A program made the translations under genes and the position numbers. A stretch of 64,000 nucleotides of DNA from Ginglymostoma cirratum (lineage: Eukaryota), in assembly GCA_024137785.1 (NCBI GenBank), contig JAHRHZ010000019.1:853725-917724 (forward strand), given 5' to 3'. Positions 2,326 through 64,000 of the stretch are shown here, in pieces; the first letter of the stretch is position 1; the number at the start of each line of letters is the position of its first letter. Under the pieces are notes generated by a model. That model did no database searches and was not told the origin of the DNA. It worked only from the letters and a program-made list of their open reading frames with translations.

Positions 2326-2670
2326 GTATCACTGGTCCAGTCCTTATCCAGTCTCCGAGCCTGGAACATGTCACCAAGGGTCACGCTGCCCGGTTACAGT
2401 GCACCATGCAAATTGCCGCAGTGACACACACCGACGTTCATTGGTACCGGGAGCAACCAGGGAATATTATGAAACATGTTATAACACTTGAAATGAAGAA
2501 CAACATCCGAAGGAGCCCAGGATTCACTGATCGATTCCAGCCTTCCAGAGACCCCTCCAGTAACAGCTTCATTCTGACCATCACAAACGTGCAGCCCAAT
2601 GACACTGGGGTCTACTATTGCTCAGTCTGGGGATGGATTTATGGGAGAGGAAGCCTGCTCAATGTCACCA
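2326..2670 (+). CDS. Gene A exon V1, germline-joined VJ Ig domain
   Basis: taaag|GT acceptor, A|gtaagt donor, phase 1/1. GITGPVLIQSP..RLQC..VHWYREQPG..RF..LTITNVQPNDTGVYYCSVWGWIYGRGSLLNVT contains the B-strand Cys, C-strand Trp, DxGxYYC and GxG J motif. Confidence 0.95.
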
Positions 2671-5600
2671 GTAAGTAGAGTTTACATGACAATCACTTAG
2701 AGCAAATACCCCTTTCCCAATGAATGAATTGGAGATCTGTTTGCGGGTGTCACTGGCTGGGCCAGCATTTATTGCCCATCCTTAACTGCCCTTGAGAAGG
2801 TGGTGCTGAGCTGCCTTTTTGAACCACTGCAGACACCCATTGGTTGCCATTCCTGATTTTAGGTCGGGCTCCTACACAATCAATTCAGACCCTGCTAAAC
2901 GGCTCTTCAAAAGCTATGATCTGAATTAAAGGTAAAGCTTGAACTGGACATTGGGGATTCTCCAAATCCTGACATGGACCAGCTAGTCTGGTAAAATTTA
3001 ACATCTTGATATAATCCTGACCAATTAAAATGTCTTAATAAGTTTAGACTGTGTGTTCCTCATCCATAAATAATCAGCCATTGGAATTTCATGAGCTAAT
3101 TTGTAAAATTTCATTCTGATCCTCAGATGGAGTGACCAACTGATGGACCACTGTCCATTCCTCATGGCCTGGTACTTCGGGCAGACTCTATTCCCTCATT
3201 AACACTTTGTCTTTCAAGCAATAACACTCAGGGATTGTTCCTGATTCCATTTCTGAGGAGGCTTTCTGGTAAAACTCTCTCGATTCAGCATCCATTCATT
3301 GCATTTCTGTTTAAGAAGATTTTCTGAACATATCAGCCACATTGTCTTTACATTCATTCTTCTCTGCTACATTTTTGAAAATTGATTCTGTTCGCAGACA
3401 TTCCAATCCAAATCAATGTCTCATAGATTCCTTGTTCTCCGACTCTAACTACGTGAACCTGTGATCTAGTCACAACATAGTCAGAAATCATTTATGGATA
3501 TTCCTCCCATTTTTTAATCTCTGTTAATATCTCCAATGAATATTTTGCCCTCCATTAACCCTGCAGGAAATCAAACAGGACCATCTGGCAGCATCAGCGA
3601 TTGACTTTTTTGATTGTCTCTTTAAATCTTTATTGGCTTACATGCTTGATTCGAAGCTGAAGGAAATGGCTTTCCTTTTGAGACTGAATTCTCAGAACCT
3701 CAAGTGTTCTGAATTGATTAAAACAGTTTTTTCACTGATTGCCCAGCTCTTTATTTCTACAAATTGACTCTAAGGCTGGATGTGCTGGTGTTGGGGGGGC
3801 AGGGGATTTCAAAGTAGGTTAACATTAAGGATCTCGGGGATGAAGTGCTGTCATTTGAGGAGTAGTTGATGCCTCTGGCTCTGTACTTGATGGAGTTTAG
3901 AAGGATGAAGTGGAATCTGATTGAAACAGACCGAATACTGAGTGACTTTGATTTAGTGGGCATGGAAAGGAAGTTTCTGCTAATAGGAGAGACTAGGACC
4001 TCAGGTCTCAGCCTCGGAGTGAAGGCATGACTGTTTGGAACTGAGATGAGGAGAAATTAGATCAGTTTCAGGGAGGTGAATCTGTGGAAGACGTTGCTGC
4101 AGAGAGCTGTGGAGTCCAAGTCAGTGAGTGTATTTAAGAGAGATGGATGAGTTCCTTATTAATAACGATTTCAGGCAAAAGGCAGACAAATGGGATTGAG
4201 AAACTGGTGTAAATTTATTCATAAAAACCAAAAGGACTGCAGATGCTGGGTATCAGAAACAAAAACAGAAATTGCTGGAAAAGCTCAGCAGATCTGGCAG
4301 TATCTGTGGAGGGAAATTAGATTTAATGCTTCAGGTCCAGTCACCTTCCTCGGAATTGATTCATTCAATATCTTTCTCTTAAAGGTGTAAATGCCCCAGT
4401 CCTTCTCCAGTCTCTGAGCCTGGAACGTGTCACCGAGGGTCACACTGCCCGGTTACAGTGCACCATGAGGAACGCCGCAGTGACACACACTGATGTTCGT
4501 TGGCACCGGGAGCAACCAAGGAAAAACACAGAGTGGATTTTAACACATCACGTGGGGGACATCACACAATGGAGCCCACGATTCATGGAGCGATTCCAGT
4601 CTTCAAAAGACTCCTCCAATAACAGCTTCATTCTGGCCATCACAAACGTGCTGCCTGTTGACAGTGCGGTCTATTACTGTAAAGTGTGGGGAGATATCAG
4701 TGGGAATGGAACCCAGCTGACTGTAACGGGTAAGACATGTTTATCTTTAATAATCTGTCAAAACAACCCCTTCCACATGGATTTATTGGAGAGGAGAATG
4801 CGTTAAATTTCTCTGGTAAAGAGAAAGCAGAGAGCTTGATGTAAACATAAATTTCTCTGGTAAAGAGAAAGCAGAGAGCTTGATGTAAACATAAAACAGT
4901 TACCTTCTTTTGTTTTAGTCACAGATAGAATAAACTGTTTCTCCTCTTGGATAGTTCCTCAATCTCAATTTTTTTCTCTTCTCTCAGTCTTTTTACTTCT
5001 CCATCTCGTTTGTTCTCAGTGTTGTACTTAACATTGTCCAGTATCTATCTGGTTTTGTTCCATTCATTCTTGGGACATGGCAATCATTGACTGGGCCAAC
5101 ACTTGTTGTTCATTTCAAATGGCCCTTGAAACGAAATGTCTTCACCCGGAGAGTGGGGAGCCTGTGGAATTCTGTGCCATAAGAAACAGTTGAGGCTAAA
5201 ACATTGTATGTTTTCAAGAAAGAGTTAGATATAGTTCTGAGGGCGAAAAGGGATTAAAGGGTTTGGTGAGAAATGGGGGACTGGGAACAGAGTTGGATGG
5301 TCAGTGGCACGGTGACTCAGTGGTTAGAATGGCTACCTCATAGCGCTAGAGACCCGGGTTCAAATCCACCTGTGGGTGACTGTCTGTGTGGCGTTTGCAC
5401 ATTCTCCTTGTATCTGCATGGATTTCCTTCCACAGTCCAAAGGTATGCAGGTAAGGTGGATTGGCCATGCTAAATTGTACATAGTTTCCATGGATGTGTA
5501 GGCTTGGTGGATTAGCCATGGGAATTGCAGGGAGAGGGTAGTGTGAGTCTTGGTGGGATGCTCTTCAGAGAGCCAGCGTGGACTTGTTGGGCTGAATGAC

Positions 5601-8600
5601 CTGTTTCCAGTGTAGGGATTCTATGAATATGTTGAATGGTGGTGCAGGCTGGATGGCCTGCTCCTGTTGCTACTTTCTATGTTTTGAGAAGGTGATGGTG
5701 ATGTGCCTTCATGAGCCGCTATGGTCCTCTTGGTGTTGAGACATTTGATCCAGTAACGCTGAAGGAACGATGATGATATATTTCCATGTTCGGATGGTGA
5801 GTGCCTTGTAGGGGAACCTGAAGGAGGTGGTGTCGCGTGTATCTACTCTCTTTGTCATTTCAGAATTGAGAGTCTGTGGGTTCAGAAGGTACTTTTGGAG
5901 GAGCCTTGGTGAGCTACTGAAGGGCATCTTGTCGATGGTACACATTGTGATTCGGTTTTGAATGTTGAATGTGTTAGTTGTGGTACCAACCAAGGGGGCT
6001 GCTTTGTCCTGGATGGCATGTTGCTTTTTGAATGCGTTGGAGCTGTACCCATCCAGGCAAGGGTAGAAGGAGGCAATTCAACCCATCTTGTCTGCATTGA
6101 CTCTTCACATGATGATCATTCCCAACTGCCAATGTCCTGCTTTCTCCCCACAGCCTTGCACACTGTTAGGATACAGAATAGGATGTAGCAAAAGTGAGTG
6201 AGAGAGGGCGTAGTCAGGGGGCATCAAAAGCTGTTTGAAACTTTCAACTTTTTCCTTTTGGTTTTCGATGAGAATGAAACTTTTCAAACGGCTGTTCAAT
6301 CTCTTCCAATTACTCAGTTGTGAACATTGTGAAATTACCTTTTCGATAGTTTATTCTGTTACAGGATCCTGCACAGAATGAGCAAAGCAACAAATTGGAA
6401 AGCATTCAGCTGATGGATATTTTTCAAATCATTTCCTGTCAAATCACAAACTGCAATAACCACACAGGAAGCTCCAATTGATCTTCTACAAATCATCATT
6501 TAATCAGGAGGATGTTTTATAAAATGTTACAATTCAAGTTACACTATTTTTACTCTTCGAAATGAACAGATCCATTGGCTGATCCAGTCCTCATTCAGTA
6601 TCCAGTGGTCAGCAAGGTACCAGAGGGTGAAACTGTCGAGTTCCAGTGTGCCATGTATAACGCCAGTGTGAATGACACAGATGTACACTGGCACTACCAG
6701 AGACCTGGCAGCAACACAGAGTGGGTGATAAGCCAGTTTGTGAATGGCACCCTCACCAAGGCCCAGGGTTTCCATGATCGTGTTCATGTTTCCAGGAATG
6801 TCAGCAGGAACAGTTACCTTCTGAGTCTTGTGAATGTGACTGTCAATGATAGTGCTGTGTACCGCTGCAGTGTGTGGAGCTACATCTATGGAGGAGGGAG
6901 CCAGCTCAATGTAACTGGTAAGGCAATGGGAGGGAATGCAGGTATGAACAGGGAAGAGAGAACATGGCTGCTGTGCTTCATCAGTAGAAGGGCAGAATGG
7001 TCATCAAGGCCAGGTATTCCCAAGGCAGGATGGGGAGAGGCTTGCAGGGGAGGTTGTAGCCAGTGGGGTTCCCTTGTAGCTTCAGTACTTGGCCTTCAGA
7101 ATGGAGGAGGATGTGCGTTTGTGAGGTGCTGTCTGAGGAACTTTGCTGAATTTCAGCAGTGTATATTGTAGTTAATACACAGTAGGATGTCAGTGGTGTA
7201 GGGATTGGATGCTTGTGGCTATGGTGACAGTCATTAGGGCTACATTTTCCTGGATTGTATCAATCTTCTTTAGTGTTGCTGGAGCAGCACTAACCAGGCA
7301 AGTGGGGAGTATTCCATCCCACTCCTGACTTGTGCCTTCTGGATAGTAAATAGGCTTTGGGGAGTGAGGAGGGGATTTATGACCCTGAAGATCTCAAACA
7401 TAATGTTAACATTAGTGACTGAAGTGACTGAGTGTGTAACATTCTGATATTTTACAGAAAAATCTTCCCATGGTTTTCCCTGGATTTCAGGTCCTAGTTT
7501 AATCATTGGCACCATTCTCGGCTTCATTGTCTTGATCTGCATTGTCCTGCTCACAGTTTTCCTTCATAAACAAAAGCTGTGTTTATCAGTAAAGGACTCC
7601 ACTCAACGGTAAATCTCATTTCATCTTGGGCTTGATTCTGTCACTGCACAGTTTGTGTTTTCAATATTGGGACAATTGTTTTTAGTGAGTACTGATACTC
7701 CCACTGCAGCTTGCAGATCCATTGTAAATGGTGGATCGGTGACTGTTGAGACCATCCCAAACGTCCAGATGCCCAATCACTTCCAATTTGCTCCATCTCT
7801 GGTATCACACGCCCTCCAGTCCAGGCCACAGGCACCTACTCGTGACAGTCAGAAATCTTTGAATGGGTCAAGCATTAGACATCACCTGCAGGATCCCCAG
7901 TAGATACCGGATCATTATCCACCAAGCCCAGTGTTAGGGTCTGCCTTAGTGCTGGTGGCTCACTGGCAGCGCAGCACCTCCTGCTGGGAAGACCATGCGA
8001 GTACCAGACCACTCGAACCAGTATGCTCGCTGGCCTTTTGCTTCCACATCAACAGAAAACACAATTTCTCTGATAGTAGGAACTGCCGATGCTCCATTTC
8101 TGAAGAAGTGTCCAGACCCGAAACTTCAGCTTTCCTGCTCCTCTGATGCTGCTTGGCCTGCTGTATTCATCCAGCTCTACACCTTGTTATCTCACATTTC
8201 CCTGCCCTGTTCCCCCATTCTTTCAACACTCACATCTCTCTTCAATTGAATCCTGAATATTGACATTGATTCTACACCCGCCATTAATCTGTCATGGCTC
8301 ACAGAGCCTCTCCGTCCTCTGGGTGAAGGGATTTCCGGAGATTATGGACTCGATCTTTTTTGTTGTGTTTTGTATCCATGATCCCTCATTCTTCACCCCC
8401 TCAATAGCTGTTTCATCTTGTTCATTGGCCCTTGAAAGGGTTTTGAGTCCATTGATCATAGCCCTGCAGTCTGGCTACTTACAAAGATACAAAGACATTC
8501 TGAAGTTTTTCTTTGTTTCTGTGTTTGCTTGTCCCGAGAAGCGTCCCACTGAGCCGGTGACTATGAGACCAGGAGAAACAGGGACAGGAGTTGGCCATTC

Positions 8601-11600
8601 GGCCCCTCAAGCCTGCTTTGCAATTCAATATGATCATGACTGATTCAACATTCCTCACATGCACTTTCCTGCCTTCTTCTGTAACCCGCGATTTCCCAAT
8701 TGACCAAGAATCTATTGACCTTTGCCTTTAAAACTGAAGGGCTCTGCCCTATAGCTCTCTGTGGCAAGGAGGTCCAAGCGCTCACAATCCTTTGAGAGAA
8801 GAAATTCCTCCTCATCTCAGTCTTAAATTCATATTCCTTTTTTTCTGAGACTATGCCCTCTAACCCCCGACTCTCCCATGATCCTCTCCAAGTTTACCCC
8901 GTCAAGCCCCTTAAGAATCCTGTTTGTTTCAATGAGATCACAACTCATTCTTCTAAACTCTCATGAGTAGAGTCACAACTTGTTTAGCCTTTGTTCAAAA
9001 AACAATCCCTCTATACTGGGTGTCGTCCCAGTGAACCTTCTTTGAACTGCCTCTGTTAAATAATATCTTTTCATAAAGAGGGACCAAAACTGCTGTCAGC
9101 ACTGCAGATGTGCAGTTCACTCTTTCACTCTTCACAGCTACATAACCTTGAAGAGGAGAGCCCTCTCAGTGCCTGGAGAGCTGATGGAATATTCATTCTG
9201 AGTAAAGGAGTCATAGGCCCACAGTATCTTAACTAACATTCAAAAGATAAAGAATACTGCTTCCTCCTGATGCTGTAATCGTTACCTTTGACTTTGTGAA
9301 GGCTGTTTGAATCTAGCAGTGAGCGTAAATCCAGCAGGAAGTAAAAGTATTTTCTGAGCATAGGGAGCCCAGCGGAACCCTGTATCGAGCTGAGTCTAGC
9401 TGCTGTTATCCATGACCCTCCAGCACAGGCTGCAGTATCCTATTACTGAGAGAGACACTCAAGCAGAATTGAAATGTTTCCGATTCACCATGAGCTCTGT
9501 GCTCTTGTGGCACCGATATCAGTCTCTGCTGTGTCTCCAAATGTGACAGTTACTTTCATATACATCAAGGGATGTGGGCATCAGTGGCTGGGCCCAGCAG
9601 TTATTATCCATCCCAAGTTGCCCTGGAGATGCTGCTGGTGAGCTACCTTCTTGAACCTCTGCAGTCCAGTGCACATGCTGTGTTTATTGAGTTGGGATGG
9701 AAAGAGTGAAGTTCTCGAATCATCAGCTCCTAATATGAGCTGCAGAACGGGGTCTCGATTGGGAAGAAGAGACTTGTGATTTCGCCTTGTCCCAAATACA
9801 AACCCCTTTCTTCCAGTGCTCCCTGCTGGGACATCCTTTCTGAACCTATGGGATAAGACAGATAAAAATGATTCAACCTGTAAATACTTCTCTAAATAAT
9901 TGGTTTGTTGATGTTAAAACATGAGAGATTTACAGATTAATACAGTTTGAAACTTATGTAAATCAGAAGCTGAAGTCAGCTCACTTTCTGAAAGACAGAG
10001 GGTTAATCCTTCATCACTCTTCATCAAGGCACAGTGGCTCAGTTGTTAGCACTGCTGGCTCACAACGCCAGGGACCTGGGTTTGATTCCATCCTTTGGCG
10101 ACTGTCTGTGTGGACCTTGCATGTTCTCCCTGTGTCTGCATAGGTTTCCTCCCACGGTCAAAAGATGTGCAGGCTAGGTGGATTGCCTGTAGTGTCTGGG
10201 GTTGGGATACTGTGAGGGTTGGTGTGGGCTCGCCAAAAGGTCCCTTTCCATTCTGTCAGGATTCTATGACTCTCACTATTCAGCTTGTTCTGTTGTGGAC
10301 AAGTTGCTGGGAAATGATTGGGTTCATTGTTATTTTTAAGTCGACCTGTTCTGACGCACCCTCTGGGGCAGCTGGGACTTGAATCCAGACAGTCATTGTT
10401 TTCGTCTTTAAGCTGGGCTTAAAAGATCGTGGTGAAAGTTGTAAAATCCATGAACACTGAGAGTGTGAAAAACTACAGTATTGTTGTTATATGGTAAATG
10501 TGCAATATGTCTAATGTGTGGCATTTATTTAGGAGCCCTGTTGAAGATCAGGATGCTGTGTATGCAACAGTAAATGGTAAGCAAATTAATTCAATCATTA
10601 TTACAATATTTGGCAGAAGTTACTCTCTGTTCCAAATATCCATTTAAGCCTGTTAGATTCATGTTGTAATTAATAAGCTAGTGGTTAGAGCATGTCATTT
10701 GTCTGATTAACACAATTTATATTCACATATATTCATAGGAGATATATTCACAGGAGACTGCAATGGAACTTACGTATACAACACAACAGAGAGAAAGCAA
10801 AACATGTTATGTATATATATTTATTACAGTGAGAAGAACCTTAACACTCTCATTAAAACAATGTTTTATCCACATTCCCATCACTCTCCATCACAGAGAC
10901 AAAAGTCTACAGAAATTATACTCCACTCTAAATCTTTCATTTTTCCAATGAACTGACTCCTGCTCATTTCTTTGTTTTGAACTGTCAAAACAATTCCATG
11001 ACTTTTCTTTGAATCCAGTTGCATGAAGCTATCCCTGTTCTAATGGCTAAGCTTTTTTCAATTTGAGCAACCTGAAGATTCCTGTCTCAAATTTGCCCTG
11101 CTTGGAAAATTTCGCAAACATTGCTGCTGTGGTGGCTGGATTCCACTCCACTGAAAATTCCAGGTGGGAAAGAAACTCAAACTTCATTCTGAATTCAACT
11201 CTTGATTATTTTCAACTTAACCATATTAGATCTTTGAAATTGCGGTGCTCTCTCTGTGATCAGTTTGCCTGGTTGACGCGATGGACGTTACAATAGAGAG
11301 GAGTGCCCAGAATTCACATTCCGCTAAACCAGACCAAAGTGACTCTGGCATTTTCCCCTCACTATCCTTCCCAGTTTAAAGAGCTCAATTGTGACATGGC
11401 TCCATTCTAAAGAGGTATAATTGTATTTTCTTTCAGATCGAACACAGAGCAGTGAGCAAGCAGCAGTTCCTCCTGTTGTGGTAAGGAAATGGGACACGGC
11501 TGTTGGTTTTTGCTCCATTTCTAACACAAGGGCTTTGAGAAACAGGAGCCACATCCAGGAGGAACTTCAGTATCACCAGAATAAGTACAAAGCATAAATT

Positions 11601-13980
11601 GTAACAAACAGAAAGTCTCTGTTCCACAACAGGCTCTGAATGAAAATAATCAAAGAGAAATCGATCATTTCCTTCTTTTGAATCTTGCAACAAGTTGCAT
11701 GGACAGAAATGTCCCCAGACTTCCAGTGCCTGGGAAATGCACCTACACTTTGTGGGATTGTGATCATAGACAGAATGCCCTGGGGTCTACGTTCCTCCTA
11801 ATAGCTTCTTCAGTTCAGGGGATCCTCCGAGGGCTGCGATTAAGAAGGGAGAATGAACCACAACCTGCTCCTGATTATGACAATATGGCTGCAGTTCAAT
11901 CTCAGCTTCCAACTTCCTTCACTATCCCCAATGTTCTTCATTCCCTCAGTATCCAAGCAATTCCTTTCTGGTGTCTTTGAAACCCACAACAAGCCCTGGA
12001 TAACAAGCATGGGGCTGGATGAACACAGCAGGTCAAGCAGCATCATAGGAGCAGGAAAATTTGACGTTTCGGGCCTAGACCCTTCATCAGAAATGGGGGA
12101 GGGGAAGAGGGTTCTGAAATAAATAGGGAGAGAAGGGGAGGCGGATAGAGGATGGGTAGAGGAGAGGATAGGTGGAGAGGAGGCAGACAAGTCGAAGAGG
12201 TGGGGATGGAGCCAGTAAAGGTGAGTGTAGGTAGGGGGGTAGGGAGGAGATAGGTCAGTCCAGGGAGGACGGACAGGTCAAGGGGGCGGGATGATGTTAG
12301 TAGATAGGAGATGGGGGTGTGGCTTGAGGTGGAAGGAGGGGATAGGTGAGAGGAAAAACAGGTTAGGGAGGTGGAGATGAGCTGGGCTGGTTTTGGGATG
12401 TGGTTGGGGGAGGGGAGATTTTGAAGCTTGTGAAATCCACATTGATGCCATTGGGCTGCAGGGTTCCCAGGCTGAATATGATTTGCTGTTCCTGCAGCCT
12501 TCGGGTGGCATCACTGTGGCATTGCAGGAGGCCCAGGATGGACATGTCATCTGAAGAATGGGAGGGGGAGTTGAAATGGTTCGCGACTGGGAGGTGCAGT
12601 TGTTTGTTGCGAACTGAGCGCAGGTGTTCTGCAAAGCGGTCCCCAAGCCTCCGCTTGGTTTCCCCGATGTAGAGGAAGCCACAACGGGTACAGCGGATAC
12701 AGTATACCACATTGGCAGATGTGCAGGTGAACATCTGCCTGATGTGGAAAGTCTTCTTGGGGCCTGGGATTGGGGTGAGGGAGGAGGTGTGGGGGCAGGT
12801 GTAGCACTTCCTGCGGTTACATGGAAAAGTGCCGGGTGTGGTGGGGCTGGAGGGGAGTGCGGAGCGGACAAGGGAGTCGCGGAGGGAGTGGTCCCTCCGG
12901 AAGGCAGATAAGGGTGGGGAGGGAAAAATGTCTTTGGTGGTGGGGTCTGATTGCAGATGGCGGAAGTGTTGGAGGATGATGCGTTGGATCCGGAGGTTGG
13001 TGGGGTGGTATGTGAGGACGAGGGGGATTCTTTTTTGGTTATTATTGCGGGGACGGGGCGTGAGGGATGTGTTTCGGGAAATGCGGGAGACACGGTTGAA
13101 GGCGTTCTCGACCACTGTGGGGGGGAAGTTGCGGTCCTTGAAGAATGAGGACATTTGAGATGTACGGGAGTGGAATGTCTCATCCTGGGAGCAGATGCGG
13201 CGGAGGCGAAGGAATTGGGAATAGGGGATGGCATTTTTGCAGGAAGGTGGGTGGGAGGAGGTGTATTCTAGGTAGCTGTGGGAGTCAGTGGGCTTGAAAT
13301 GGACATTGGTTAGGAAGATTCAATCTTTGTTCTGCTCCAAATAAGCCGACTGCAGTTGGGGAGAGAGGAGCTTGGCTTCATTGACCTCAGCACCCAAGAT
13401 TAAGAAGAGGGAATGAGTCAGAGTTGCAGCTTTTCCCTGGTGAATCATGATCCAGACAGCCTTCGATACCAGGCAGGGGTCAGTAGGGACTCTCTTGCTG
13501 TTCAATCAGATGGATGGTGTTTCAAGTCTCAGTCCACAGATTTGAGCACAGATTTTGGGCTGAATGTCCAGTGCAGTACTGAGAGAGTGCTGCTCTGTAA
13601 AAGCTGACACTCTTTTGGATGAAGAGTTAAATCTGAATCCTCTCTGTTGCCTTGGATGGATGTAACACATGCCAGGGCATTACTTTGGCAGAGAGCAGAG
13701 AGATTCTACTGAACTCTGAGTGATGTGTGTCTCTTCCCCAACAATCATCAGAACGGAGCATCTGCTCAGTGCTGCTGCTGGGATCTTGCTGTGTACAAAT
13801 TAGCAACTCCTGGTGTTTCTGAGAAAAATAATGAGTGATGTTTCTCTTCGATTCCAGCTGGCTGAAGGCGAATGTCATTATGCTGAGCTTCACTTTCGCC
13901 AACAAGGAACCAGCCGGCCGACAGTGACAGCTGCTGAAAGTAACTCGGAGTACGCAGTTGTAAAACGGGCAAGAAACTGA
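2326..13980 (+). CDS. Gene A: multi-VJ-domain IgSF inhibitory-type receptor (3 V-set domains, TM, ITIM-like tail); 5'-incomplete, leader exon not found in window
   Basis: Seven exons with AG/GT ends and compatible phases: 2326-2670, 4385-4729, 6570-6917, 7458-7608, 10533-10576, 11437-11480, 13858-13980. Total 1400 nt plus 1 nt from an upstream exon = 467 codons, open to TGA at 13978-13980. Confidence 0.85.
4385..4729 (+). CDS. Gene A exon V2, germline-joined VJ Ig domain
   Basis: aaag|GT acceptor, G|gtaaga donor, phase 1/1, same 345-nt length as V1. ..RLQCTMRNAAVTHTDVRWHREQP..DSAVYYCKVWGDISGNGTQLTVT. Confidence 0.95.
4804..4895. repeat. Perfect 44-bp tandem duplication
   Basis: taaatttctctggtaaagagaaagcagagagcttgatgtaaaca x2. 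Confidence 0.95.
5300..5625 (+). mobile_element. tRNA-derived SINE, HE1/V-SINE-like
   Basis: A/B-box head (ggtgactcagtggttag..gggttcaaatcc), ctgtctgtgtgg..ttgcacattctcc body and gtagggattctatg tail. Confidence 0.75.
6570..6917 (+). CDS. Gene A exon V3, germline-joined VJ Ig domain (membrane-proximal)
   Basis: acag|AT acceptor, G|gtaagg donor, phase 1/1. DPVLIQYP..VEFQC..VHWHYQRPG..DSAVYRCSVWSYIYGGGSQLNVT. Confidence 0.95.
7458..7608 (+). CDS. Gene A transmembrane exon
   Basis: tttacag| acceptor, CG|gtaaat donor, phase 1/2. EKSSHGFPWISGPSLIIGTILGFIVLICIVLLTVFLHKQKLCLSVKDSTQR: a ~23-aa uncharged hydrophobic run followed by a basic stop-transfer segment. Confidence 0.9.
10026..10270 (+). mobile_element. 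HE1/V-SINE-like SINE
   Basis: Same family as 17901-18203, with an internal deletion. Confidence 0.7.
10533..10576 (+). CDS. Gene A cytoplasmic exon 1
   Basis: tttatttag| acceptor, G|gtaagc donor, phase 2/1. SPVEDQDAVYATVN. Confidence 0.85.
11437..11480 (+). CDS. Gene A cytoplasmic exon 2
   Basis: ttttctttcag| acceptor, GTG|gtaagg donor, phase 1/0. DRTQSSEQAAVPPVV. Confidence 0.75.
12000..13311 (-). mobile_element. Penelope-like retroelement (Neptune-like), 5'-truncated, in the last intron of gene A
   Basis: Uninterrupted frame: RT C-terminus (FKPTDSHSYL..IPYSQFLRLRRICS), Cys-rich linker (PCNRRKCYTC) and GIY-YIG endonuclease (NVVYCIRC..LYIGETKRRLGDRFAEH), followed by a terminal repeat with a hammerhead motif. 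Confidence 0.9.
12059..12094 (-). ncRNA. Minimal type I hammerhead ribozyme motif (PLE terminal repeat)
   Basis: Minus strand reads ATTT-CTGATGA-A-GGG-TCTAGG-CCC-GAAAC-GTC-AAAT: complete CUGANGA/GAAA/GUC core, stem II, 4-bp stem I and loopless palindromic stem III (ACGT). Confidence 0.75.
13858..13980 (+). CDS. Gene A terminal exon with paired ITIM-like motifs
   Basis: tttctcttcgattccag| acceptor, phase 0. LAEGECHYAELHFRQQGTSRPTVTAAESNSEYAVVKRARN*. Confidence 0.85.
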   Translation: MAEGECHYAELHFRQQGTSRPTVTAAESNSEYAVVKRARN

Positions 13981-14116
13981 AGTTCGACAAGACCCTTTTC
14001 GTCTGCAGCAAAGAGCAGTCAAGAGCAACTCACTTGAACAGAACCATCTCAGCTTCTTCTTCGCATTCACCCAGATTCAGGCTTCATCACCAACAACTGT
14101 CCGGTTTCCATATATT

Positions 14117-26200: not shown

Positions 26201-28629
26201 TTATATTTCAGTTTGAGAGAGAGTGATTTTAAATCAGTAATGAACTCAATGGCTATGGGGAAAAGGCAGGAAAGTGGAGATGGGGATTATCAAAGCCGAT
26301 TTGATATCATTGAATGGTGGACCAGGCATAATAGTCCTTCTATGTCTTTGGTTTTAATGTCCAATTGAGACATTTAACACAGGGGTATTGGATAGTTATT
26401 TGAACAGAAACAACATGCAGGATGTAGGGGAAAAGGCAAACAATTGTACAAAGTAAAAGTGCTCAGAGAGCCAGTGCAAACACAATGGACCCAATGGCTT
26501 CCTTCTTCATCAGATCATTTCTGTGATTGTGGGAACAGGGAGATTCCACTTTGTGCAGCAAATGGTGCTTACACTTTTCTGTCTCCTGGGTTCAGTTTGC
26601 AGCTGTTGTTCAGAAAGACAACCCCCATCTCAGCCTAAATGCCAAAATCACATTTCCTGCAGGCAATCTCTCTCTTTGGTCTGTAAATGGTGAAATCCCT
26701 GGTTTGTTCCACATTATTCTCTGTCCATTAAACAGCTGGGAAATGGTGGAAGCACAGTGTGACACTACTGCCTCAATGAGTCCGAGGGGGCAGCTTGGCT
26801 CAGTTGGTCACTCTCTCACATGGAGGGCAGGAAGCTGTGTCTGTCAAAACTATTTCAGGAGCGTGATTCAAAGCTGAGGTTCTGGTGGACCAGGCAGATG
26901 TCACAGAGCAGTTTCAGATGAGCTACATTGTGTGAGAGGGGCTGGTACAATGGCTATGGGGAAAAGGCAGGAAAGTGGAGATGGAGATTATCAAAGCCGA
27001 TCTGATATCATTGGATGGTGGACCAGACACAGTAGTGCAAATAACTGACGAGTGTGGCACCATGGCAACAGATCACCTGGCAGGAGTGGCTACAAGCAGC
27101 AGCAACAGAGAGAAGATTGCACTCTGCCATTGTTTCTGTCCTCTGTTGCGTGGAGTGCTCAGTTGTCCAATTCGAAGATTTAAAGATCACAAAGCACAAT
27201 TTGAAAAAGAACTAGAGATACTCTCAGTCTCCTGGTTATCAACATCCCTCCTTCAATTAACACCATCACATAAAACATGAATTGTCATTCAGCATATTGA
27301 TCTTTGGAAATTTTCCCAGTTTGGAACAGACCCAGGGTTCAGAGCTGTCACAGATACAGAACTTCAAACTGATTTGTGAAATCCTGGAGATGTTTTAGTG
27401 GAACAAATGAAATATTATTGATTATAGAGAATTGATGTGAATGCCGGCATGGATCCATTGGTGAAACTCATTCTGAATCACAAAGTTGTAAATTCACCAA
27501 TTTTGTAAAAGCAGGAGGTTGTCTTTTAAATTCACCCCAAAGAGACCCAATGAGCGCGCAGGCTAATTCAATCCACCCCAAATACACACCTTAATGTGCA
27601 GCCTGTCCCTCAATCCCAATCTCCCATTCAATGAATGACAGAAAAGGATGGGAGGAACATTCTGTTTTCTGGTCTGTGTTCCCAGCCTGTGGAGTTTTGT
27701 GTCAGCTGCACCAAACAATCTTCAGACAGTAATAAATTTTCCATGTGATACTCTCCTCTGGTTCTGAATGTTCAAATATATAGAATTCACACAAACTCCA
27801 CGCAGCACAAACCATGGAAAGGTCTTTATAACAAGTTAAACTTCTCCATAGGAAACACTAACCCAAAGCAACACAGAGGGACAGGGTCACAGCAGTGCTC
27901 CACTGATCATTTCAATAGAGCGACAACCCTGCTCATTCACACAGTGTATTGTACGTTCAGTTAATAGATTGAAACATAAAGTGTCCCAGCCAACTACAGC
28001 TGCTTTAATGTCTCATTTCTCAGGAGTGAAAGAAATTACAGTGTCAATAAAGAGGAAGTTCAGCACAGTTCTCCAGTTTCCGATTGGGGGGTGCAGTTTG
28101 AACATGTTCCTTGTTCCAATTCTTGATTTTTAATGTTTCTCGCTAACCTCTTTTTAACCCTTTGGTGAACAAACATTGCTGAGTGGGCTTTCCATGAAAT
28201 GAATCTGGTAATATTTGTTGTTAATGATTTGTTCTCAGTGAATTTACCCTGAGAATCACGCAGCTGTGGTTACAATCACTGCAAAAACTGTCATGACTGT
28301 AGATCCTCACCCCAAATTATTTACAAACTTGTTACAGTTGTCGTTACAACATGTATTATTAAAAAATCAACATTGTCATGACTTTCTGGAAATCAAGCTC
28401 ATTATTCCCAGCGTTGTCCCAACAGAGAAAGATTGAGTCAAACATTCCAATGTCTCCAATTTGCCTGACCGATGAACGTAGTGTAAATAAAAGCACATAT
28501 CAGGTCATCGAACTGATCAAGATAATCTCAAACTTAGAGAAAACTTTGTTTTAACCAAAGGCAGAATGGAGACACAATTTCTAACTGAGATAACCCTGTC
28601 TGAATTTCTCCTTTCCCATATGAAGTCAG

Positions 28630-39200: not shown

Positions 39201-42200
39201 AGGGTAGTGGGTCTCTGGAACTCACTGCCTGTCTGGGTGGTGGAGGTAGAAACCCTGGGCACATTGAAGAAGTATTTAGATGTGCATTTGTGATGCCAAA
39301 GCGATGGGCCAACTACTGGAAAGTGGAATTATAATCGGTAGAAGGTTGTTTTTGACTGGTGCGGACGCAATGGGCGAAGTTCCTTTTTGTGACTCTATGA
39401 TTCTAAGATATCCATTCATGATGGATTGTTCTTTTTTGAATTCTTGTTCTTCCCTATTATGAAATGCCAATATTTCAGTTTTTACGTTGCATTTGATAAT
39501 TTATAAGTGATGTTTCTTTGCCTCTGACAGCGGAGAGACCCATCCTGCACCAGTCTCCAGAAGTGCACAGTGTGATGGAAGGTGACTCTGTCAGATTTCA
39601 GTGTAACCTGGAGAATGCCAATGTCAGCAAACTCATTGTTACTTGGTACAGGAATGGATCCAGCAAACAGGAGCTGATAACATACGATACACAGGACCAT
39701 GTCTACCGTCACCTAGGAGTGGCAGCACGTTTCCAACCTTCCAGGGATATCTCCAATAACAGCTACATCCTAACCATCACAAATGTGCAAGCCAGTGACA
39801 ACGCTGTCTATGTCTGTAGTGTGCGGGGATCGAGCTACGGGGCAGGAACCCAGTTGAATGTAACCAGTAAGTAAATATTAGCTCCCACTGACAGGCTCAC
39901 AGGGAAACATCATCACCAGCACCAGGTTAATGAACAGGGGAAGGGTTTAGTGTGGGTGAGTGGGGAGGTGGTGGTGGAAGGGGGAGATTATAAACCCTGC
40001 AAGAAGCTGCCTCATGCTTTGGAGATTTGTTGGAAGAGCAGGAAATGAAACTGTTGTAATAATATTCAAGCTCTCTCCAACCTTGGTGGGAGGCAATACA
40101 GTTCGCAACTTGGCTGAAGACTGCTCTTCAACAGAGAAAAATGAGTCACAGTGTGTGATCTGAAAACACAGAAATGACTTCCACTTGTATATGGAAGCTG
40201 CTTGGAGGCTGCTTGGAGACTGATTTGTGAGGGACGCCTCCTCTGTGAATGAGAAAAGGGATACTGGTCTCTGTGGAGTTATTTCACAGGGAATGTGTGT
40301 ACTCTTTTGTTCCAGTCTTTGTGATTTCATATTGATGATTTAATGGAATGTTCAACAGAGAAAACAGGGAAAGGTTGTTCAGGCTGTGTCTTCATGATGG
40401 GGAGATGTTAGGGTTGTGGGGAATAGGTACTGTCTAATTTTAACTGCATTTACTAACTTCCTTTCCGTACATATACTCTTCCATTTCTTTCCAAGTGTAT
40501 TACTTTACTTGCGTGCATATTTGACGTACGTTTTGATGATGTTTTTCAGGGTAGTAGGTAATGAAATTCAATTTTCTTTCAATCATCAAGAAAAACTTGT
40601 AAATAAATTCATACAGTGTGGGAAAAGGCTATTTGGCCCATCAAATCTGCACTGACCCTCTGAAGAGCATTCCACCCAAACCCAGACCCCGTCTTATTCC
40701 CCATAGATGTGACTGGGTGAGAAGGGAATTAAAAGACAGGCATTGTTACGGAGGGGGAATTGCCGAACCCCTTTGATAATTAAACTAAAACACAAGCCCT
40801 AATCTGATAAGACGGGAGTAGGGGGTTCTCCTCTAATAAATACACCCAAAACACTCAGAAAAATTTGCCTTTCCTCTTGTAATCTATGAAAATAAAAGAA
40901 AGCAAATCCCTGATCCACTTAATAAATAACAAGAAGCAATTTATTTATTTAACCGTAACAATGAATGAATTAACAGAATTATTAACAAACAGAAATTTCC
41001 CCCTTAGATGAGTAACTACTTCCTAACTGGCCTGAATTCTACTGGAATAAAGTTCAAATAAACAGAAGTACCAGCCCAGAAGTACTCACGTACCACCCAC
41101 CAACCTCTGGATTCAACACATCATCCTCCGCCACTTCTGCCACCTGCAATCTGACCCCAGTACCAAGGATATTTTTCCCTCCCCACCCTTATCTGCCTTC
41201 CAGAGGGACCGCTGTCTCAGTGGCTCCCTTGTTTGCTCCCACCTATCTGTTCCTCTATGCAGAAGAAATAAACTTAATAAACTTAATTAATAAGAGAACA
41301 ATGATTTATAACTTAATCTCTCCAAGTTTGCACAGACTGTTTTCTGGAATATTCTGTTTTCTCCACTCTCTTCACAAATGCCTTTCTTCTGCTAAATCTG
41401 CTGTCAGAGTTGTTTCATCTCTATAATTTCTTCAATGAGGACTTTGAGCTAAAATACAGTGTTACCTTTGCTTAATTAGATTAACTTTCTCTCCGTGCTG
41501 AATGGTGCTAACTCTGGCAGATGGAGGATGGCTCTCCCTGATTTTCCAAATGCCCTAGTTTTATATACCTGTAATGAGATAATCAAATTTTTATAAAATG
41601 GTTGGTTTCAGGTTGTCAACACCATCAGATATAAATTCAATTGGCTTTCTGTATTTAGGTGCTTTGTTTAAATTAATTGGACAAATTCAAACTTTGTCTT
41701 GGAAAAATTGCTGTTTGGTTGTTCCATGCAAAATGTTTCCATTTGGGCACTCTCTGTACACCTGTATTTATAAACATCTAAGCACAGACAAAGCACAAGC
41801 TCCTAAGGAGACCAAAATCCTCAATTTCCGCAGCAACCACCCCAATTTCTGCAAACAAAGCTGTATTAGGACACTATTTAAACGGACCAGCACTCAGTGC
41901 AACACGCCAGAACTATGCAGGAAAGAGGAAGAGCACCCATACAAAATCCTTGCTATGAACGGATATCCCGCAACTTCATCCACAGTTGCCTGCTAAACAG
42001 ACGACAACAGGAGGACACAGTACACCCTAACACACTGGCCACACTGCCCTACCTCAAGAACATATCAGAACTGACAATGAGACTCCTAAGACCACGAGGA
42101 ATCATGGTAGCGTACAAGCCAACAGCCACACTACGACAAACACACACAAGGATTAAAGACCCCATTCCTGCAACATGCAGAAACAACATAGTTTACAAAA

Positions 42201-45200
42201 TGCCATGCAATGATTGCCACAAGCATTACATCGGACAGACAGGAAGGAAACTAGCCATCAGAATACATGAACATCACTTAGCAGCAGAACAGCACAACAA
42301 ATTCTCCTCAATGTCGGTACATGCAGACAATGAAGGATATCAGTTTAGCTGGGACAACATAACCGTAGTAGCCCAAGCCAAACATAGACACACATGGGAA
42401 TTCCTAGAGGCATGGTTCTCAACCCATAATGCACTCAATAAACATATAGAATTGGATCCCATATACAAACCCATACAGAACAAAACCAGAAATGACACTG
42501 TTCACCATAACGGACCGGACATTTTAAATTCCAAGTGGAGTGGAACAATATTGCTTTGTCGGAGGCCTTACTGATGATGTTTCCTAGCATGGTGATGAAA
42601 TGTCTGAATGAAAACAAGCCAGATCGGCGAGAAAGTCAACAACTTCTGAAAAGGACCACGACAATCTTTTCCCCACGGTCAATTCTATCTCCCTGCATTC
42701 AATTCATGAATTCTCTACACAACTTTGTAACAGACATCGATTGCCCAACCTCACTTCTAAGATCCAAAAGAAAGATGATTGTGCTTGTTGGAGGGCAGTC
42801 ATCTCCACCCCTGGACATCTTTGCAGGAGTTCCTCAGGATAGTGTACTTTTGCCAACCATCTTTACTGCTTCATTTGCCCTCCACCATAAGATCAGATGT
42901 CTCACGAGTGAGTGATCAGGGTTGGTTTAATTCTTTTTCCTGTGGTTCACCTGTTTCTCTGTTTCCAGTTCATGCAGTAGAAATGAACAGAGAACTGTGG
43001 ATTGTCTGGATCAGTGTGGGAGCTGCTGTGGGATTTGCTCTCATCGCTGGAGCTGCTCTTCTCTTCTGTATCAGATGCACTCGGTCTGGGAAACAGTCAT
43101 CCTGTAGGTGGAAATCAATCTTTCACTGAAATGGCCACATTAGGAAGAGTTTTCCTCATGATTGAAGGTTGGAGTGGGCAAAGAGGGGAATGTTAGAAAT
43201 ACTCAGTGCAGCCTTTGTGGAGGAAGAGAGTTCAAATCAGTTTTTCATCAAAAAAGTGAGGTATTAGAGATGGAGAGTTGTTCACAGAAGTACATTACCC
43301 AGGGAAAAGGCTGATGCTGTCTCGTCTGCTCAATTTCCAGCTGCATTTTCTGATTTTATTTCAGATTTACCAAATCTGCAGCATTTTAACATCCACTCCC
43401 TTGACCACTGATGCCCAAAACCAACAGTGTGTACCTTCTACAAGACACACCACACAAATTCACCAAAGATCTTCACACAGCATCTTCCAAACACACGGCC
43501 ACTTCCACCTGGAAGGATAAGGGCAGCAGATACATGGGAATACTACATCCTGCAAGTTCCCCTTCAAGCCACTCACCATTCTGACTTGGAAATATTTCAT
43601 TGTTCCTTCAGAGATGCCGGGTCAAAATCCTGGAATTCCCTCCCTAAGGGCATTGAGGATGAACCCACAGCACATGGACTGCAGCAGGACAAAAAGGCAG
43701 CTCATTACCACTTTCTCAAGGGGTAGCTAAGGATGGGCAACAAATGATGGCCCAGCCAGTAACAGCTACTTCCCATGAGTGAATGAGAAAAAAAAAGTGT
43801 TAATTTTAATTATTTGGTGCCAACTGCCCTCAATAGATAAGGTCTCTTTTCCCTAGGGAGTTGGATTTCAAGACTATGGGGTATAATTTTCAGGTGAGAG
43901 AAGAAAGATTTTAAAAAGACATGGGGGCAATTTCTTTTACACAGAGAGTGGTTTGTGTGTGGAATGGGCTCCCAGAGGAAGTGGTGGATGTGAATACAAT
44001 TGCAAATAAGTACATGAATAAGAAGTGTCTGGAGGGATATGGGTCAGGTGCTGGCAGGTGGGACCTGTTTAGTTTGGAAGTATGTGTGGCATGGACTGGT
44101 TGGAGTGAAAGGACTGTATCTATGCTGTATGACTCTATGACTAATTGAGTGTGACAGTCTTTCCAGAAGATTGTTGTTTCTGTCCTTTTGTGTAGCCTCA
44201 GTCTTGGTGACATTTGATCTTTTTATTCTTCCAGCTTCACCTGTCTGTCCTGCTGACAATTTGCCAGCCCCAGATAACGAACCCATCTCTTTCTCTGGAG
44301 ACACACAGGTTGGTTGAGTTGTTTTGTGCAAAGTGTTTCACAGCTCATTTGGCTTAATGTTTCAGATGGGAAGCAGGACAATGCCAATGGTGCACGTACT
44401 CCGTGGACCAGCTTTTGGCATTTTCCAGAGGCCATTCTTCTTGTTTTGCCCATGTTTGAAGAATGGTGTTCCTCACACTGTGTTCAACTGATTGCCTCCC
44501 TATAATGGAGGCAGACACAGTTCTATGACTTCAAAAGAAGCAGGATTTGATCTGTGGGGAGACATTCACTCTCACATTGCAATGGTATGCTGAGCTACAA
44601 GGTCACATTGTCCAGGCCACTGGACAAATAGACAGCAGCAGGAAGTGCACCCGATGGAGTTGCAGCATTTTTCCAAAAGCAGAATGACTTCTGGCTTTGG
44701 GTTGTCGGGTGACAGAACGGGTGTGTAATCAAACCAAGAACTGTGGATGCTGGAAATCTGAAACAAAAACAGTAACGATTGGAGAAACTCACAGGTCTGG
44801 CAGCAGCTGTGGAAAGAAGAACAGAGTTCTCTGATGAAGTGCTGTCATAAGGGGTCACTGGACCCAAAATGTTTACTCTGTTTTCACTCGAGATGCTGCC
44901 AGACCTGTGAGTTTCACCAAATGTCTGTTTTTGTTTGTTAAAGCAGATGTGTTGGGGAGTATTTCTAAATATTCAAACATCACGCAGCCTTTGTTTTACA
45001 ATCGTGGGAAGATAATGGCTACTGATAAACGAGGAGACCGATTCAACGATACAGAGTTTCAGGCAGTATGTAGACTATTCTAATCATGTGATAATGACAA
45101 TGCTCCGTACAGCAATGCTGAAAGAACTGCGGATGCTGTAAAACAGGAACAAAAACAGAAGTTGCTGGAAAAGTTCAGCATCTGTGAAGAAAAAAAATAT

Positions 45201-49301: not shown

Positions 49302-49359
49302 TATAGTTTTCTTCATGACACTATACTGCTGCTTCATATGGAATAATGGGAGTGCACAG

Positions 49360-50640: not shown

Positions 50641-51094
50641 TTCCTTATGGTCTTATTAATATCTTCATCCTAATTATACGACAGTCATTATCAGCCCATT
50701 CATTTCGGGTTCCATTCATGCAGAGCAGGACTCTGCATCCTATCGGCACCCATCATCTGGTTCCAACCATTTGTTTTTAAAATGCAGGAACCCAGTAATC
50801 TACAAGCAGACTCCAACTCCACATATGTGGCAATTATTTCACTGATCATGGTATTTCAAAGCAAATCACTGATTGGTACCAAGACAGTAATTACACTCAG
50901 TGTAATGACTTAAACCAAAACAATGCCTTTTCAAATCTAACTCCTCTATCAAAGTGAAATCTTAATTATTGACCCTTTGTTTCAGAATTTTGAGCCACGT
51001 TAAGTCAGTGAACAAAAGATACGTTGCCGCTAAACCCTACCTGCTAAGAGTGACACTTTATCGCTGAGTCATGGAGTTTAATGATCTGCAGCCA

Positions 51095-63783: not shown

Positions 63784-64000
63784 GTATCACTGGTCCAGTC
63801 CTTCTACAGTCTCTGAGCCTAGAACGTGTCACCGAGGGTCACGCTGCCTGGTTACAGTGCACCAATGTAACAGTGGCACACATCGATGTTCACAGGTACC
63901 GGCTGTGCCTGGAGCAACTTATGAAGCAGATTTTAACACATCCAAGAATTGGCTCCACACACGGGAGACCAGGATTCACTGAGCGATTCCAGCCTTCCAG
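63784..64000 (+). CDS. Gene C VJ-family V exon (paralog of gene A V1/V2), truncated by window end; possibly a pseudogene
   Basis: aag|GT acceptor. GITGPVLLQSLSLERVTEGHAAWLQCTNVTVAHIDVHRYRLCLEQLMKQILTHPRIGSTHGRPGFTERFQPS is open, but the core Trp is replaced by Arg. Upstream intron 63544-63783 is homologous to 2083-2325. Confidence 0.85.

What the first reader, a model, noticed from the sequence alone, without database searches (positions are those of the whole stretch)
10533..13980. Gene A tail has a Siglec/NITR-like inhibitory layout on an antigen-receptor-like ectodomain
Seen: the TM has no charged residue. The tail carries AVYATV, CHYAELHF (13873-13896) and SEYAVV (13945-13962), and the last two tyrosines are 24 aa apart in one terminal exon. 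Established: a proximal xHYAxLxF ITIM plus a distal S/T-EYxxI/V motif about 23 aa later is the layout of CD33-related Siglecs and of tandem-SH2 SHP-1/SHP-2 docking sites. The -2 residues (A, C) deviate from the strict ITIM consensus. These small exons are invisible in the ORF track.
Basis: partly seen in the sequence, partly recalled or inferred. Interest (0 to 1): 0.7.

Follow-up and report, generated by a model that had tools for sequence, protein, structure and literature searches.

The report
Shark paired receptors from antibody domains
This shark gene encodes a membrane receptor with a conserved two-tyrosine tail that likely acts as an immune-cell brake; it belongs to a cartilaginous-fish family that also has likely accelerator versions and whose outer domains are most similar to one antibody light-chain type, so sharks may have turned an antibody part into innate receptors.

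Summary
Seven window exons chain through AG/GT sites into one 465-codon frame: three single-exon VJ domains, an uncharged TM and a three-tyrosine tail. A zebra-shark RefSeq protein matches it at 409/465 with a gap-free tail, and RNA-like contigs cover the tail exons. The two distal tyrosines (23-24 apart) recur in 49 of 120 homologues from 21 elasmobranch species. But Siglec and NITR are analogies, not kin. Gene A is one inhibitory-type member of an apparently undescribed chondrichthyan cluster (40 V exons read here) that also has ITAM-tailed members (26 of 120 homologues). Membrane-proximal V domains group by species, not tail type, as in paired receptors. The nearest relative of the V domains, genome-wide and in a 1.8-billion-protein search, is the sigma-2 immunoglobulin light-chain V (bootstrap 97-99%; AU tests lack power). 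Whether the family came from a germline-joined sigma-2 exon or from a shared never-split ancestor is open. Ligand, cell type and SHP binding are untested. Ten literature searches found no description, but key subscription papers were not readable. The scan's earlier notes hold nothing on this family.

The parts
2326..2670 (+). V exon 1 of gene A: single-exon VJ domain, phase 1-1, CDR3 of 6 residues
   Evidence: AG/GT, frame; V-set E 1.6e-17; 56/110 identical, no gap, to a bamboo-shark germline-joined sigma-2 VJ
4385..4729 (+). V exon 2: VJ domain with an N-glycan sequon on the J strand
   Evidence: dN/dS about 0.6-1.3 against five same-type paralogues
6570..6917 (+). V exon 3 (membrane-proximal), homogenised among family members
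   Evidence: AF2 model pLDDT 93, antibody-V fold Z 20, rmsd 1.1-1.2 A; dS 0.08-0.18 to five paralogues
7458..7608 (+). stalk, uncharged transmembrane segment and start of the tail
10533..10576 (+). tail exon 1 (44 nt) with the proximal tyrosine motif AVYATV (10555-10572)
   Evidence: tyrosine kept in 40 of 49 inhibitory-type homologues; contig depth on its bin
11437..11480 (+). tail exon 2 (44 nt), spacer without tyrosine
   Evidence: contig depth on its bin, none on the next three bins
11999..13310 (-). high-copy retroelement fragment in the last intron, absent from two paralogues; not part of the receptor
13858..13980 (+). terminal coding exon with the ITIM-like CHYAELHF (13873-13896), the ITSM-like SEYAVV (13945-13962) and the stop
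39531..39866 (+). V exon of neighbouring family member gene B
42969..43104 (+). TM exon of gene B (3' end approximate), uncharged, of the type that carries YxN or ITAM-related tails
63786..64000 (+). start of a V exon of the next family gene (runs out of the window)

Best explanation
Gene A encodes a single-pass membrane protein with three or more tandem non-rearranging VJ domains and a conserved tyrosine pair in its tail, and it likely works as the inhibitory member of a paired immune-receptor family whose V domain likely shares its origin with the sigma-2 antibody light-chain V. Shown: exon structure, conservation of the tail, ITAM-tailed relatives in the same cluster, exon-limited homogenisation of the V3 domain, sigma-2 as nearest V. 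Inferred: on ligand binding a Src-family kinase phosphorylates the two distal tyrosines, the tandem SH2 domains of SHP-1/SHP-2 bridge them (spacing 23-24, F at +5) and dampen activation; ITAM partners with near-identical V domains signal directly through Syk/ZAP-70 without an adaptor and act as counter-receptors against microbes that exploit the inhibitory form. The domains probably do not pair like antibody Fv halves, since the light-chain interface residues have decayed and the J strand is often glycosylated.
For: Open spliced frame and 1:1 zebra-shark model, 409/465. Tail pair in 49 of 120 homologues, 21 species; ITAM YxxL-x7-YxxL/I in 26 of 120, 14 species; double YxN tails in 7; 1 of 96 TM segments has a charged core residue. 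In this genome inhibitory and ITAM exons alternate in one cluster, the ITAM split by a phase-0 intron, as described for CEACAM ITAMs (PMC5112662, passages). V3 tree of 57 domains follows species, ITIM and ITAM forms intermixed; V3 exon dS 0.15 between gene A and a distant inhibitory subtype whose last exon is synonymously saturated and whose introns stop aligning within about 25 nt of the exon. Tail resembles the PD-1 ITIM/ITSM consensus that binds SHP-2, and shark SHP-1/2 binding surfaces are reported conserved (PMC12151841, passages). Sigma-2 link: best non-family hit of V3 in the genome is the C168 locus (88 bits vs 44 next), which has split V+RSS, J, C1 and a germline-joined VJ and whose C1 is 78/106 identical to a deposited horn-shark Igsigma-2 chain; reciprocal search returns 26 family exons before the first lambda V; family profile without CDR3/J scores 15 sigma-2 V at 84-120 bits and 59 other shark V at 63 or less; family+sigma-2 clade in 968 and 990 of 1000 bootstraps; among the top 150 of a 1.84-billion-protein search only family members and sigma-2 chains exceed 70 bits per domain.
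Against: No functional data, ligand or cell type. The -2 residue of the first distal motif is Cys, outside the ITIM consensus. No junction was read directly in RNA, and runs X1/X2 are only guessed to be RNA. AU tests on 97 columns reject neither family+lambda (p 0.15) nor family+short-CDR3 sigma-2 (p 0.23). IgL sigma, IgNAR, UrIg and PRARP V domains were not knowingly in the trees. I found no ITAM gene in this assembly that is certainly intact (stops or a frameshift in single V exons; 22 of 40 V exons intact). Homologue tails are automatic gene models, include isoforms, and can be chimeric in tandem clusters; my motif regex fixes some of the positions it counts. Chimaera models have V domains but no tail.
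Confidence: 0.72

Rival explanations
1. Same inhibitory receptor, but the family and sigma-2 IgL both descend from an ancient never-split VJ exon; the family is a relic of the pre-RAG receptor rather than a product of germline joining.
For: The family is sister to, not nested in, the sampled sigma-2 genes; CDR3 length is 6 in 317 of 319 domains, as expected of a never-rearranged exon; sigma-2 is V-J joined in gar, turtle and coelacanth (PMC5985310, passages).
Against: Affinity is to one IgL isotype, not to Ig/TCR V as a whole, which implies an origin after the IgL isotypes diverged; shark sigma-2 has split, RSS-flanked genes and germline joining is documented in sharks (PMC2193156, passages); no bony-vertebrate member was found.
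Confidence: 0.25
2. The family is the cartilaginous-fish branch of NITR (or SIRP), and the sigma-2 likeness reflects slow evolution or convergence.
For: Top ESM-Atlas cluster for V3 is an 'immune-type receptor' (0.94, tied with Ig lambda V at 0.93); NITRs have single-exon VJ domains, ITIM tails and V-only forms (bioRxiv 2021.06.11.448072, passages); several homologues carry an automatic SIRP-alpha-like name.
Against: No I domain and only two Cys per domain; no C1 exon in about 690 kb of cluster DNA fetched; activation by own ITAM, not charged TM; three NITR-like teleost proteins score 38-40 bits (NITR label is my reading of their sequence); RUNX and SEP-domain marker genes lie on other contigs.
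Confidence: 0.1
3. The protein is an adhesion or endocytic receptor and the tyrosines serve as sorting signals or recruit SHP-2/adaptors in an activating role.
For: Non-consensus -2 residues; TxYxxV motifs can switch; 11 N-glycan sequons on the ectodomain; PZR/PECAM-type tails are not purely inhibitory (recalled).
Against: Fixed 23-24 spacing and +5 F over 21 species; coexistence with ITAM forms sharing the ectodomain; birth-and-death cluster with many pseudogenes, typical of immune paired receptors.
Confidence: 0.13
4. Gene A itself is a decaying copy: the frame is open but the gene is no longer used.
For: 18 of 40 V exons in the cluster are broken; a retroelement sits in its last intron; V2 dN/dS is near 1.
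Against: All seven exons and an upstream leader exon are intact; V3 dN/dS 0.17-0.35; a contig identical to its last exon breaks at the acceptor; a 1:1 orthologue exists in zebra shark.
Confidence: 0.05

Closest known systems
Immunoglobulin light chain sigma-2 (sigma-cart, NS5, type I)
   Same: V framework (mean 40% identity, FR3 nearly the same), J-like strand in the same exon as in germline-joined sigma-2 genes, split leader; the joined carpet-shark sigma-2 has the same 6-residue CDR3
   Different: No C1 domain, no RSS, tandem V exons, TM and signalling tail; VL-VH interface residues decayed (Q at W+3 94/307 vs 10/10; P at W+9 not among the six commonest residues vs 9/10; F118 49/307 vs 8/10); different contig
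CEACAM1/CEACAM3-type paired receptors
   Same: ITIM/ITSM and own-ITAM members in one cluster, ITAM split by a phase-0 intron, YxN motif upstream of the ITAM, gene conversion confined to a V exon, opposed gene orientations (PMC5112662 passages)
   Different: CEACAM N domain plus C2 domains; here disulfide-bonded antibody-type VJ domains only; no sign of homology
NITR (ray-finned fish)
   Same: Single-exon VJ domains, multigene cluster, inhibitory, activating and tail-less forms
   Different: No six-Cys I domain; 1-8 V domains in tandem; activating forms carry an ITAM instead of a charged TM; low V similarity; no RUNX linkage seen
PD-1 / BTLA / SIRP-alpha / CD33-related Siglec tails
   Same: YxxL/IxF followed 23-24 residues later by T/S-E-YAxI/V (PD-1 consensus from PMC12151841; the others recalled)
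   Different: PD-1 is a single-copy one-V gene already identified in sharks; SIRP has C1 domains; Siglecs have C2 domains and a sialic-acid arginine
UrIg / UrIg2 (shark non-rearranging VJ-C1 genes)
   Same: Elasmobranch, single-exon VJ, split leader (PMC12227049 passages)
   Different: They have 3-9 C1 domains and are single genes linked to MHC or the antigen-receptor complex; no ITIM/ITAM mentioned; not compared by sequence here
Hagfish APAR (recalled, no call)
   Same: Paired inhibitory/activating receptors with antigen-receptor-like VJ domains
   Different: Jawless fish, single V, activating form recalled to use a charged TM; not compared here

Membership tests
CD33-related Siglecs | N-terminal V-set with conserved sialic-acid arginine (YxFR) | tested here: not met
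   F strand is canonical YxC in all three domains; definition from PMC13358205 passages. A further N-terminal V exon upstream of the window cannot be excluded, but the zebra-shark one is also YxC
CD33-related Siglecs | C2-set domains after the V-set | tested here: not met
   All three domains are V-set
CD33-related Siglecs | ITIM plus distal ITIM-like motif | tested here: met
   (first motif has Cys at -2)
NITR | Single-exon V with J-like strand | tested here: met
NITR | Membrane-proximal I domain with six cysteines | tested here: not met
   Two Cys per domain; V-only NITRs exist, so this alone is not decisive
NITR | Activating members use a charged TM residue | tested here: not met
   1 of 96 TMs charged; 26 of 120 homologues have an ITAM
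NITR | Synteny with runx1/donson | tested here: inconclusive
   RUNX genes on C25, C61, C73, cluster on C18/C19; contigs are not whole chromosomes
SIRP | V domain followed by C1 domains | tested here: not met
   No C1 exon in the three cluster regions, control locus found; the feature is recalled
SIRP | Linkage to NSFL1C/PDYN (recalled) | tested here: inconclusive
   SEP-domain genes on C52, C87; opioid-precursor search gave one weak hit on C228
IgL sigma-2 | V region in the sigma-2 clade | tested here: inconclusive
   Sister to sigma-2 in 97-99% of bootstraps, not inside it; AU tests not significant
IgL sigma-2 | V-J-C cluster with a C1 exon, RSS or joined VJ, no TM | tested here: not met
   No C1, no RSS at V exons, has TM and tail
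Paired IgSF receptors (functional class) | Clustered members with opposite signalling tails | tested here: met
Paired IgSF receptors (functional class) | Ectodomains homogenised between opposing members | tested here: met
   concept from PMC3210942 (abstract only)
Paired IgSF receptors (functional class) | Shared ligand, opposite signals, leukocyte expression | not testable with these tools
   no ligand or cell-type data

The most novel reading that the evidence does not exclude
More than 400 million years ago RAG joined a sigma-2 antibody light-chain V and J in the germ line of an early cartilaginous fish, and that fused exon was recruited, without its constant domain, as the repeat unit of a new family of inhibitory and ITAM-bearing innate receptors: an adaptive-immune gene turned back into an innate one, the outcome that Lee et al. 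2000 (PMC2193156) proposed but did not show.
Probability: 0.45. Interest if true: 0.85.

Novelty: new variant of a known kind. Interest (0 to 1): 0.66.

Why it matters
Sharks lack identified KIR/LILR/NITR-type receptor families in the papers I could read; this cluster is a concrete candidate for a shark leukocyte checkpoint system with both polarities, conserved across sharks and rays and with V domains in a chimaera. Single-exon VJ genes are usually read as relics of the gene that RAG split; a family tied to one light-chain isotype suggests the reverse route, from antibody to innate receptor, and makes it testable with trees and synteny. A RefSeq locus in a devil ray that yields ITIM and ITAM isoforms from shared V exons hints at polarity switching by splicing.

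Tried and rejected
Siglec, NITR, SIRP, PD-1 and CD28-family membership: rejected on domain make-up and profile scores. Rearranging antigen receptor: no RSS at the V exons (two chance matches in the window), J already joined. Synteny markers: RUNX, SEP and clusterin lie on other contigs, opioid search uninformative; Pfam scan of 150 of 376 selected flanking ORFs on C18 found an alpha2/alpha4-type nicotinic receptor, GULO-like, NDK, B7/butyrophilin-like and IIGP exons, which did not tie the cluster to a known family; the C19 flank beyond the cluster was almost all unreadable. PDB sequence and fold searches returned only antibody/TCR V domains in the listed rows; absence of other families there excludes nothing. 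The look-up of sequencing runs listed no holder on record as RNA. The shared 6-residue CDR3 with the carpet-shark joined sigma-2 gene was first read as direct descent; trees nest that gene inside carpet-shark sigma-2 (0 of 1000 bootstraps join it to the family), though AU does not reject the grouping, so I treat it as probably convergent. Two AU tests were underpowered. No complex prediction was run (no binding partner to claim; phosphopeptides cannot be modelled). Ohta 2019 (PMC6761025) and Flajnik 2023 (PMC10530332) were not held; Dornburg & Yoder 2022 was seen only as a reference.

Full report
Observation. The window is G000:C19:853725-917724 of a 4.36-Gb genome; homologues place it among carpet sharks. 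Three V exons (2326-2670, 4385-4729, 6570-6917), a TM exon (7458-7608), two 44-nt exons (10533-10576, 11437-11480) and a terminal exon (13858-13980) all have AG/GT ends and chain into one 465-codon open frame. An intact leader exon lies about 16 kb upstream of V1, outside the window; part of the DNA between them is unreadable, so an extra N-terminal V exon, as in the zebra-shark orthologue, is not excluded. That orthologue (XP_059504819.1) is 409/465 identical and gap-free across the three tail junctions. In a lay of four runs on 10400-14110, contigs of two runs guessed to be RNA give depth on the bins holding the three tail exons and little on other non-repeat bins, and one contig identical to the last exon breaks at its acceptor; a second form carries the variants of the paralogue at C19:938k. 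No junction was listed directly, because retroelement reads filled the table.

The tail is conserved. Two searches gave 120 homologues, all chondrichthyan, from 23 species including the chimaera Callorhinchus (17 weaker hits were not listed). By regex, 49 carry the distal pair (21 species; spacing 24 in 38, 23 in 11), 26 an ITAM with a 7-residue spacer (14 species), 7 a double YxN tail, and 38 are truncated, tail-less or other. The regex fixes some positions and isoforms are counted, so these are not independent counts; none of the 38 shows the terminal exon with its tyrosines lost (my reading). At -2 the first motif has L/M/I/V in 37 and C in 12; the second has T in 36, S in 7, A in 6. The proximal tyrosine is kept in 40 of 49. 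The pair resembles the PD-1 consensus motifs that dock the two SH2 domains of SHP-2, with F at +5 (PMC12151841, passages seen). Only 1 of 96 TM segments has a charged core residue, so activating members would signal through their own ITAM.

A paired cluster. In about 690 kb fetched from C18 and C19 (partly unreadable) I found 40 V exons, 22 intact, with leader, TM and tail exons of the inhibitory subtype of gene A, a second inhibitory subtype, two ITAM subtypes and YxN types, on both strands. The ITAM is split by a phase-0 intron, as reported for CEACAMs (PMC5112662, passages). One ITAM subtype shares the TM exon and first tail exon of gene A, so it arose by exon shuffling. I found no ITAM gene here that is surely intact: the upstream neighbour has stops in one V exon and the C18 gene a frameshift in one V exon, although such phase-1 exons could be skipped. 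A tree of 57 V3-type domains follows species rather than tail type. Between gene A and the second inhibitory subtype on C18 the V3 exon is 95% identical (dS 0.15) while flanking introns stop aligning within about 25 nt and the last exon is synonymously saturated: exon-limited homogenisation, the pattern described for paired receptors (PMC3210942, abstract only). V3 is under purifying selection (dN/dS 0.17-0.35 for gene A); V2 has dN/dS 0.6-1.3, suggestive only.

What the ectodomain is. The V3 model (pLDDT 93) has an antibody-V fold, Z about 20, rmsd 1.1-1.2 A over 110 residues. The best non-family hit of V3 in the genome was on C168 (88 bits, next locus 44). That locus has split V segments with an RSS-like end, a J, C1 exons and one germline-joined VJ; its C1 is 78/106 identical to a deposited horn-shark Igsigma-2 chain, and its make-up fits the published nurse-shark sigma-2 set (PMC5192425, passages). 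The reciprocal search lists 26 family exons after the three sigma-2 V and before the first lambda V (150 of 170 candidates scored). A profile of 29 family domains cut at the second cysteine scores 15 sigma-2 V at 84-120 bits and 59 other V exons of this genome (lambda, kappa, IgH, TCR, and CD8-, NKp30-, CD28-, Siglec-, nectin-like by my reading of their motifs) at 63 or less. Trees without CDR3/J join family and sigma-2 in 968 and 990 of 1000 bootstraps, each side monophyletic (the second bootstrap had not fully settled; 14 redundant rows dropped and 18 of 39 new V exons added for it). In the 1.84-billion-protein search only family members and sigma-2 chains passed 70 bits per domain among the 150 listed; the seven unknown high scorers I looked up were all chondrichthyan. 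Against this, AU tests on 97 columns rejected neither family+lambda (p 0.15) nor family+joined short sigma-2 (p 0.23), and IgL sigma, IgNAR, UrIg and PRARP were not knowingly sampled. CDR3 is 6 residues in 317 of 319 family domains, the same as in the joined sigma-2 gene of four carpet sharks, but that gene nests inside carpet-shark sigma-2, so the match is probably convergent. Residues that pair VL with VH have decayed and 145 of 307 domains carry an N-glycan sequon on the J strand, so Fv-like pairing is unlikely (inference).

Mechanism. Shown: structure, conservation, opposing tails, homogenisation, sigma-2 affinity. Inferred from established ITIM/ITAM biology: ligand binding leads to Src-family phosphorylation of the two distal tyrosines, tandem-SH2 docking of SHP-1/SHP-2 and damping of activation; ITAM partners with matched V domains recruit Syk/ZAP-70 and counter microbes that exploit the inhibitory receptor. 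Ligand and cell type are unknown.

Comparison and novelty. It works like CEACAM1/3, NITR or Siglec-5/14 pairs but fails their defining domain tests, and it is not an IgL. Ten full-text searches found no description of a tandem-VJ ITIM/ITAM family in cartilaginous fish; I saw passages of PMC11599192, PMC12151841, PMC12227049, PMC6795676, PMC3308329, PMC5192425, PMC2193156, PMC5985310, PMC4279169, PMC5112662, PMC13358205 and bioRxiv 2021.06.11.448072, the abstract of PMC3210942, and a term search of the PMC3964593 supplement (no ITIM, SIRP or sigma hits). Ohta 2019, Flajnik 2023 and Dornburg & Yoder 2022 could not be read and may bear on this; the bioRxiv supplements were not seen. RefSeq already predicts the proteins under unrelated automatic names. 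Lee et al. 2000 proposed that a rejoined Ig gene could become a novel receptor; this family is a candidate, while germline-joined sigma-2 in gar, turtle and coelacanth keeps the relic reading open. The scan's notes hold other shark paired families (VJ-C1, Siglec-15-like) but nothing on this one.

Verdict. Observation confirmed; interpretation partly supported; new variant of a known kind; interest 0.66. The tail alone is ordinary; the value lies in the family and its light-chain origin.

Noticed in passing
window 39531-50830 (+), gene B: One V exon, an uncharged TM exon and candidate tail exons near 44.2k, 48.9-49.3k (IYAN motif) and 50.8k (first half of an ITAM-like motif); no second ITAM half and no leader found; orthologous bamboo-shark model P0190 lacks the TM exon.
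   Followed up: partly
window 27861-27946 (-): Orphan family leader exon on the opposite strand, with a deletion and a damaged donor, between genes A and B.
   Followed up: partly
proteins P0047/P0106 (Mobula hypostoma LOC134350038, XP_062911018.1 and XP_062911019.1): Two annotated isoforms share leader and two V domains (250 identical residues) but end in an ITIM/ITSM tail or an ITAM tail: polarity switch by splicing, or a chimeric model.
   Followed up: partly
G000:C19:938.4k (L034): Broken paralogue of gene A with a CAA instead of CAG acceptor at the last exon, yet contigs and reads with its three variants begin at the same acceptor in other samples: allelic difference or an unassembled copy.
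   Followed up: no
window 11999-13310: Retroelement fragment inserted in the last intron of gene A only; two paralogues run straight across the site.
   Followed up: no
G000:C18:286k-477k (L084-L133): Flanking genes: alpha2/alpha4-type nicotinic receptor, GULO-like exons, an NDK exon, a B7/butyrophilin-like V-C-C gene and an IIGP GTPase exon. CHRNA2 and GULO are neighbours on human 8p21 (recalled).
   Followed up: partly
G000:C18:57.75M (L150-L151): Isolated broken family V exons at the far end of C18, 57 Mb from the cluster.
   Followed up: no
   Followed up: no
G000:C19:983.3k (L027): V exon with an 11-residue aromatic-rich duplication in the CDR2 region, also seen in zebra and epaulette shark models.
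   Followed up: no
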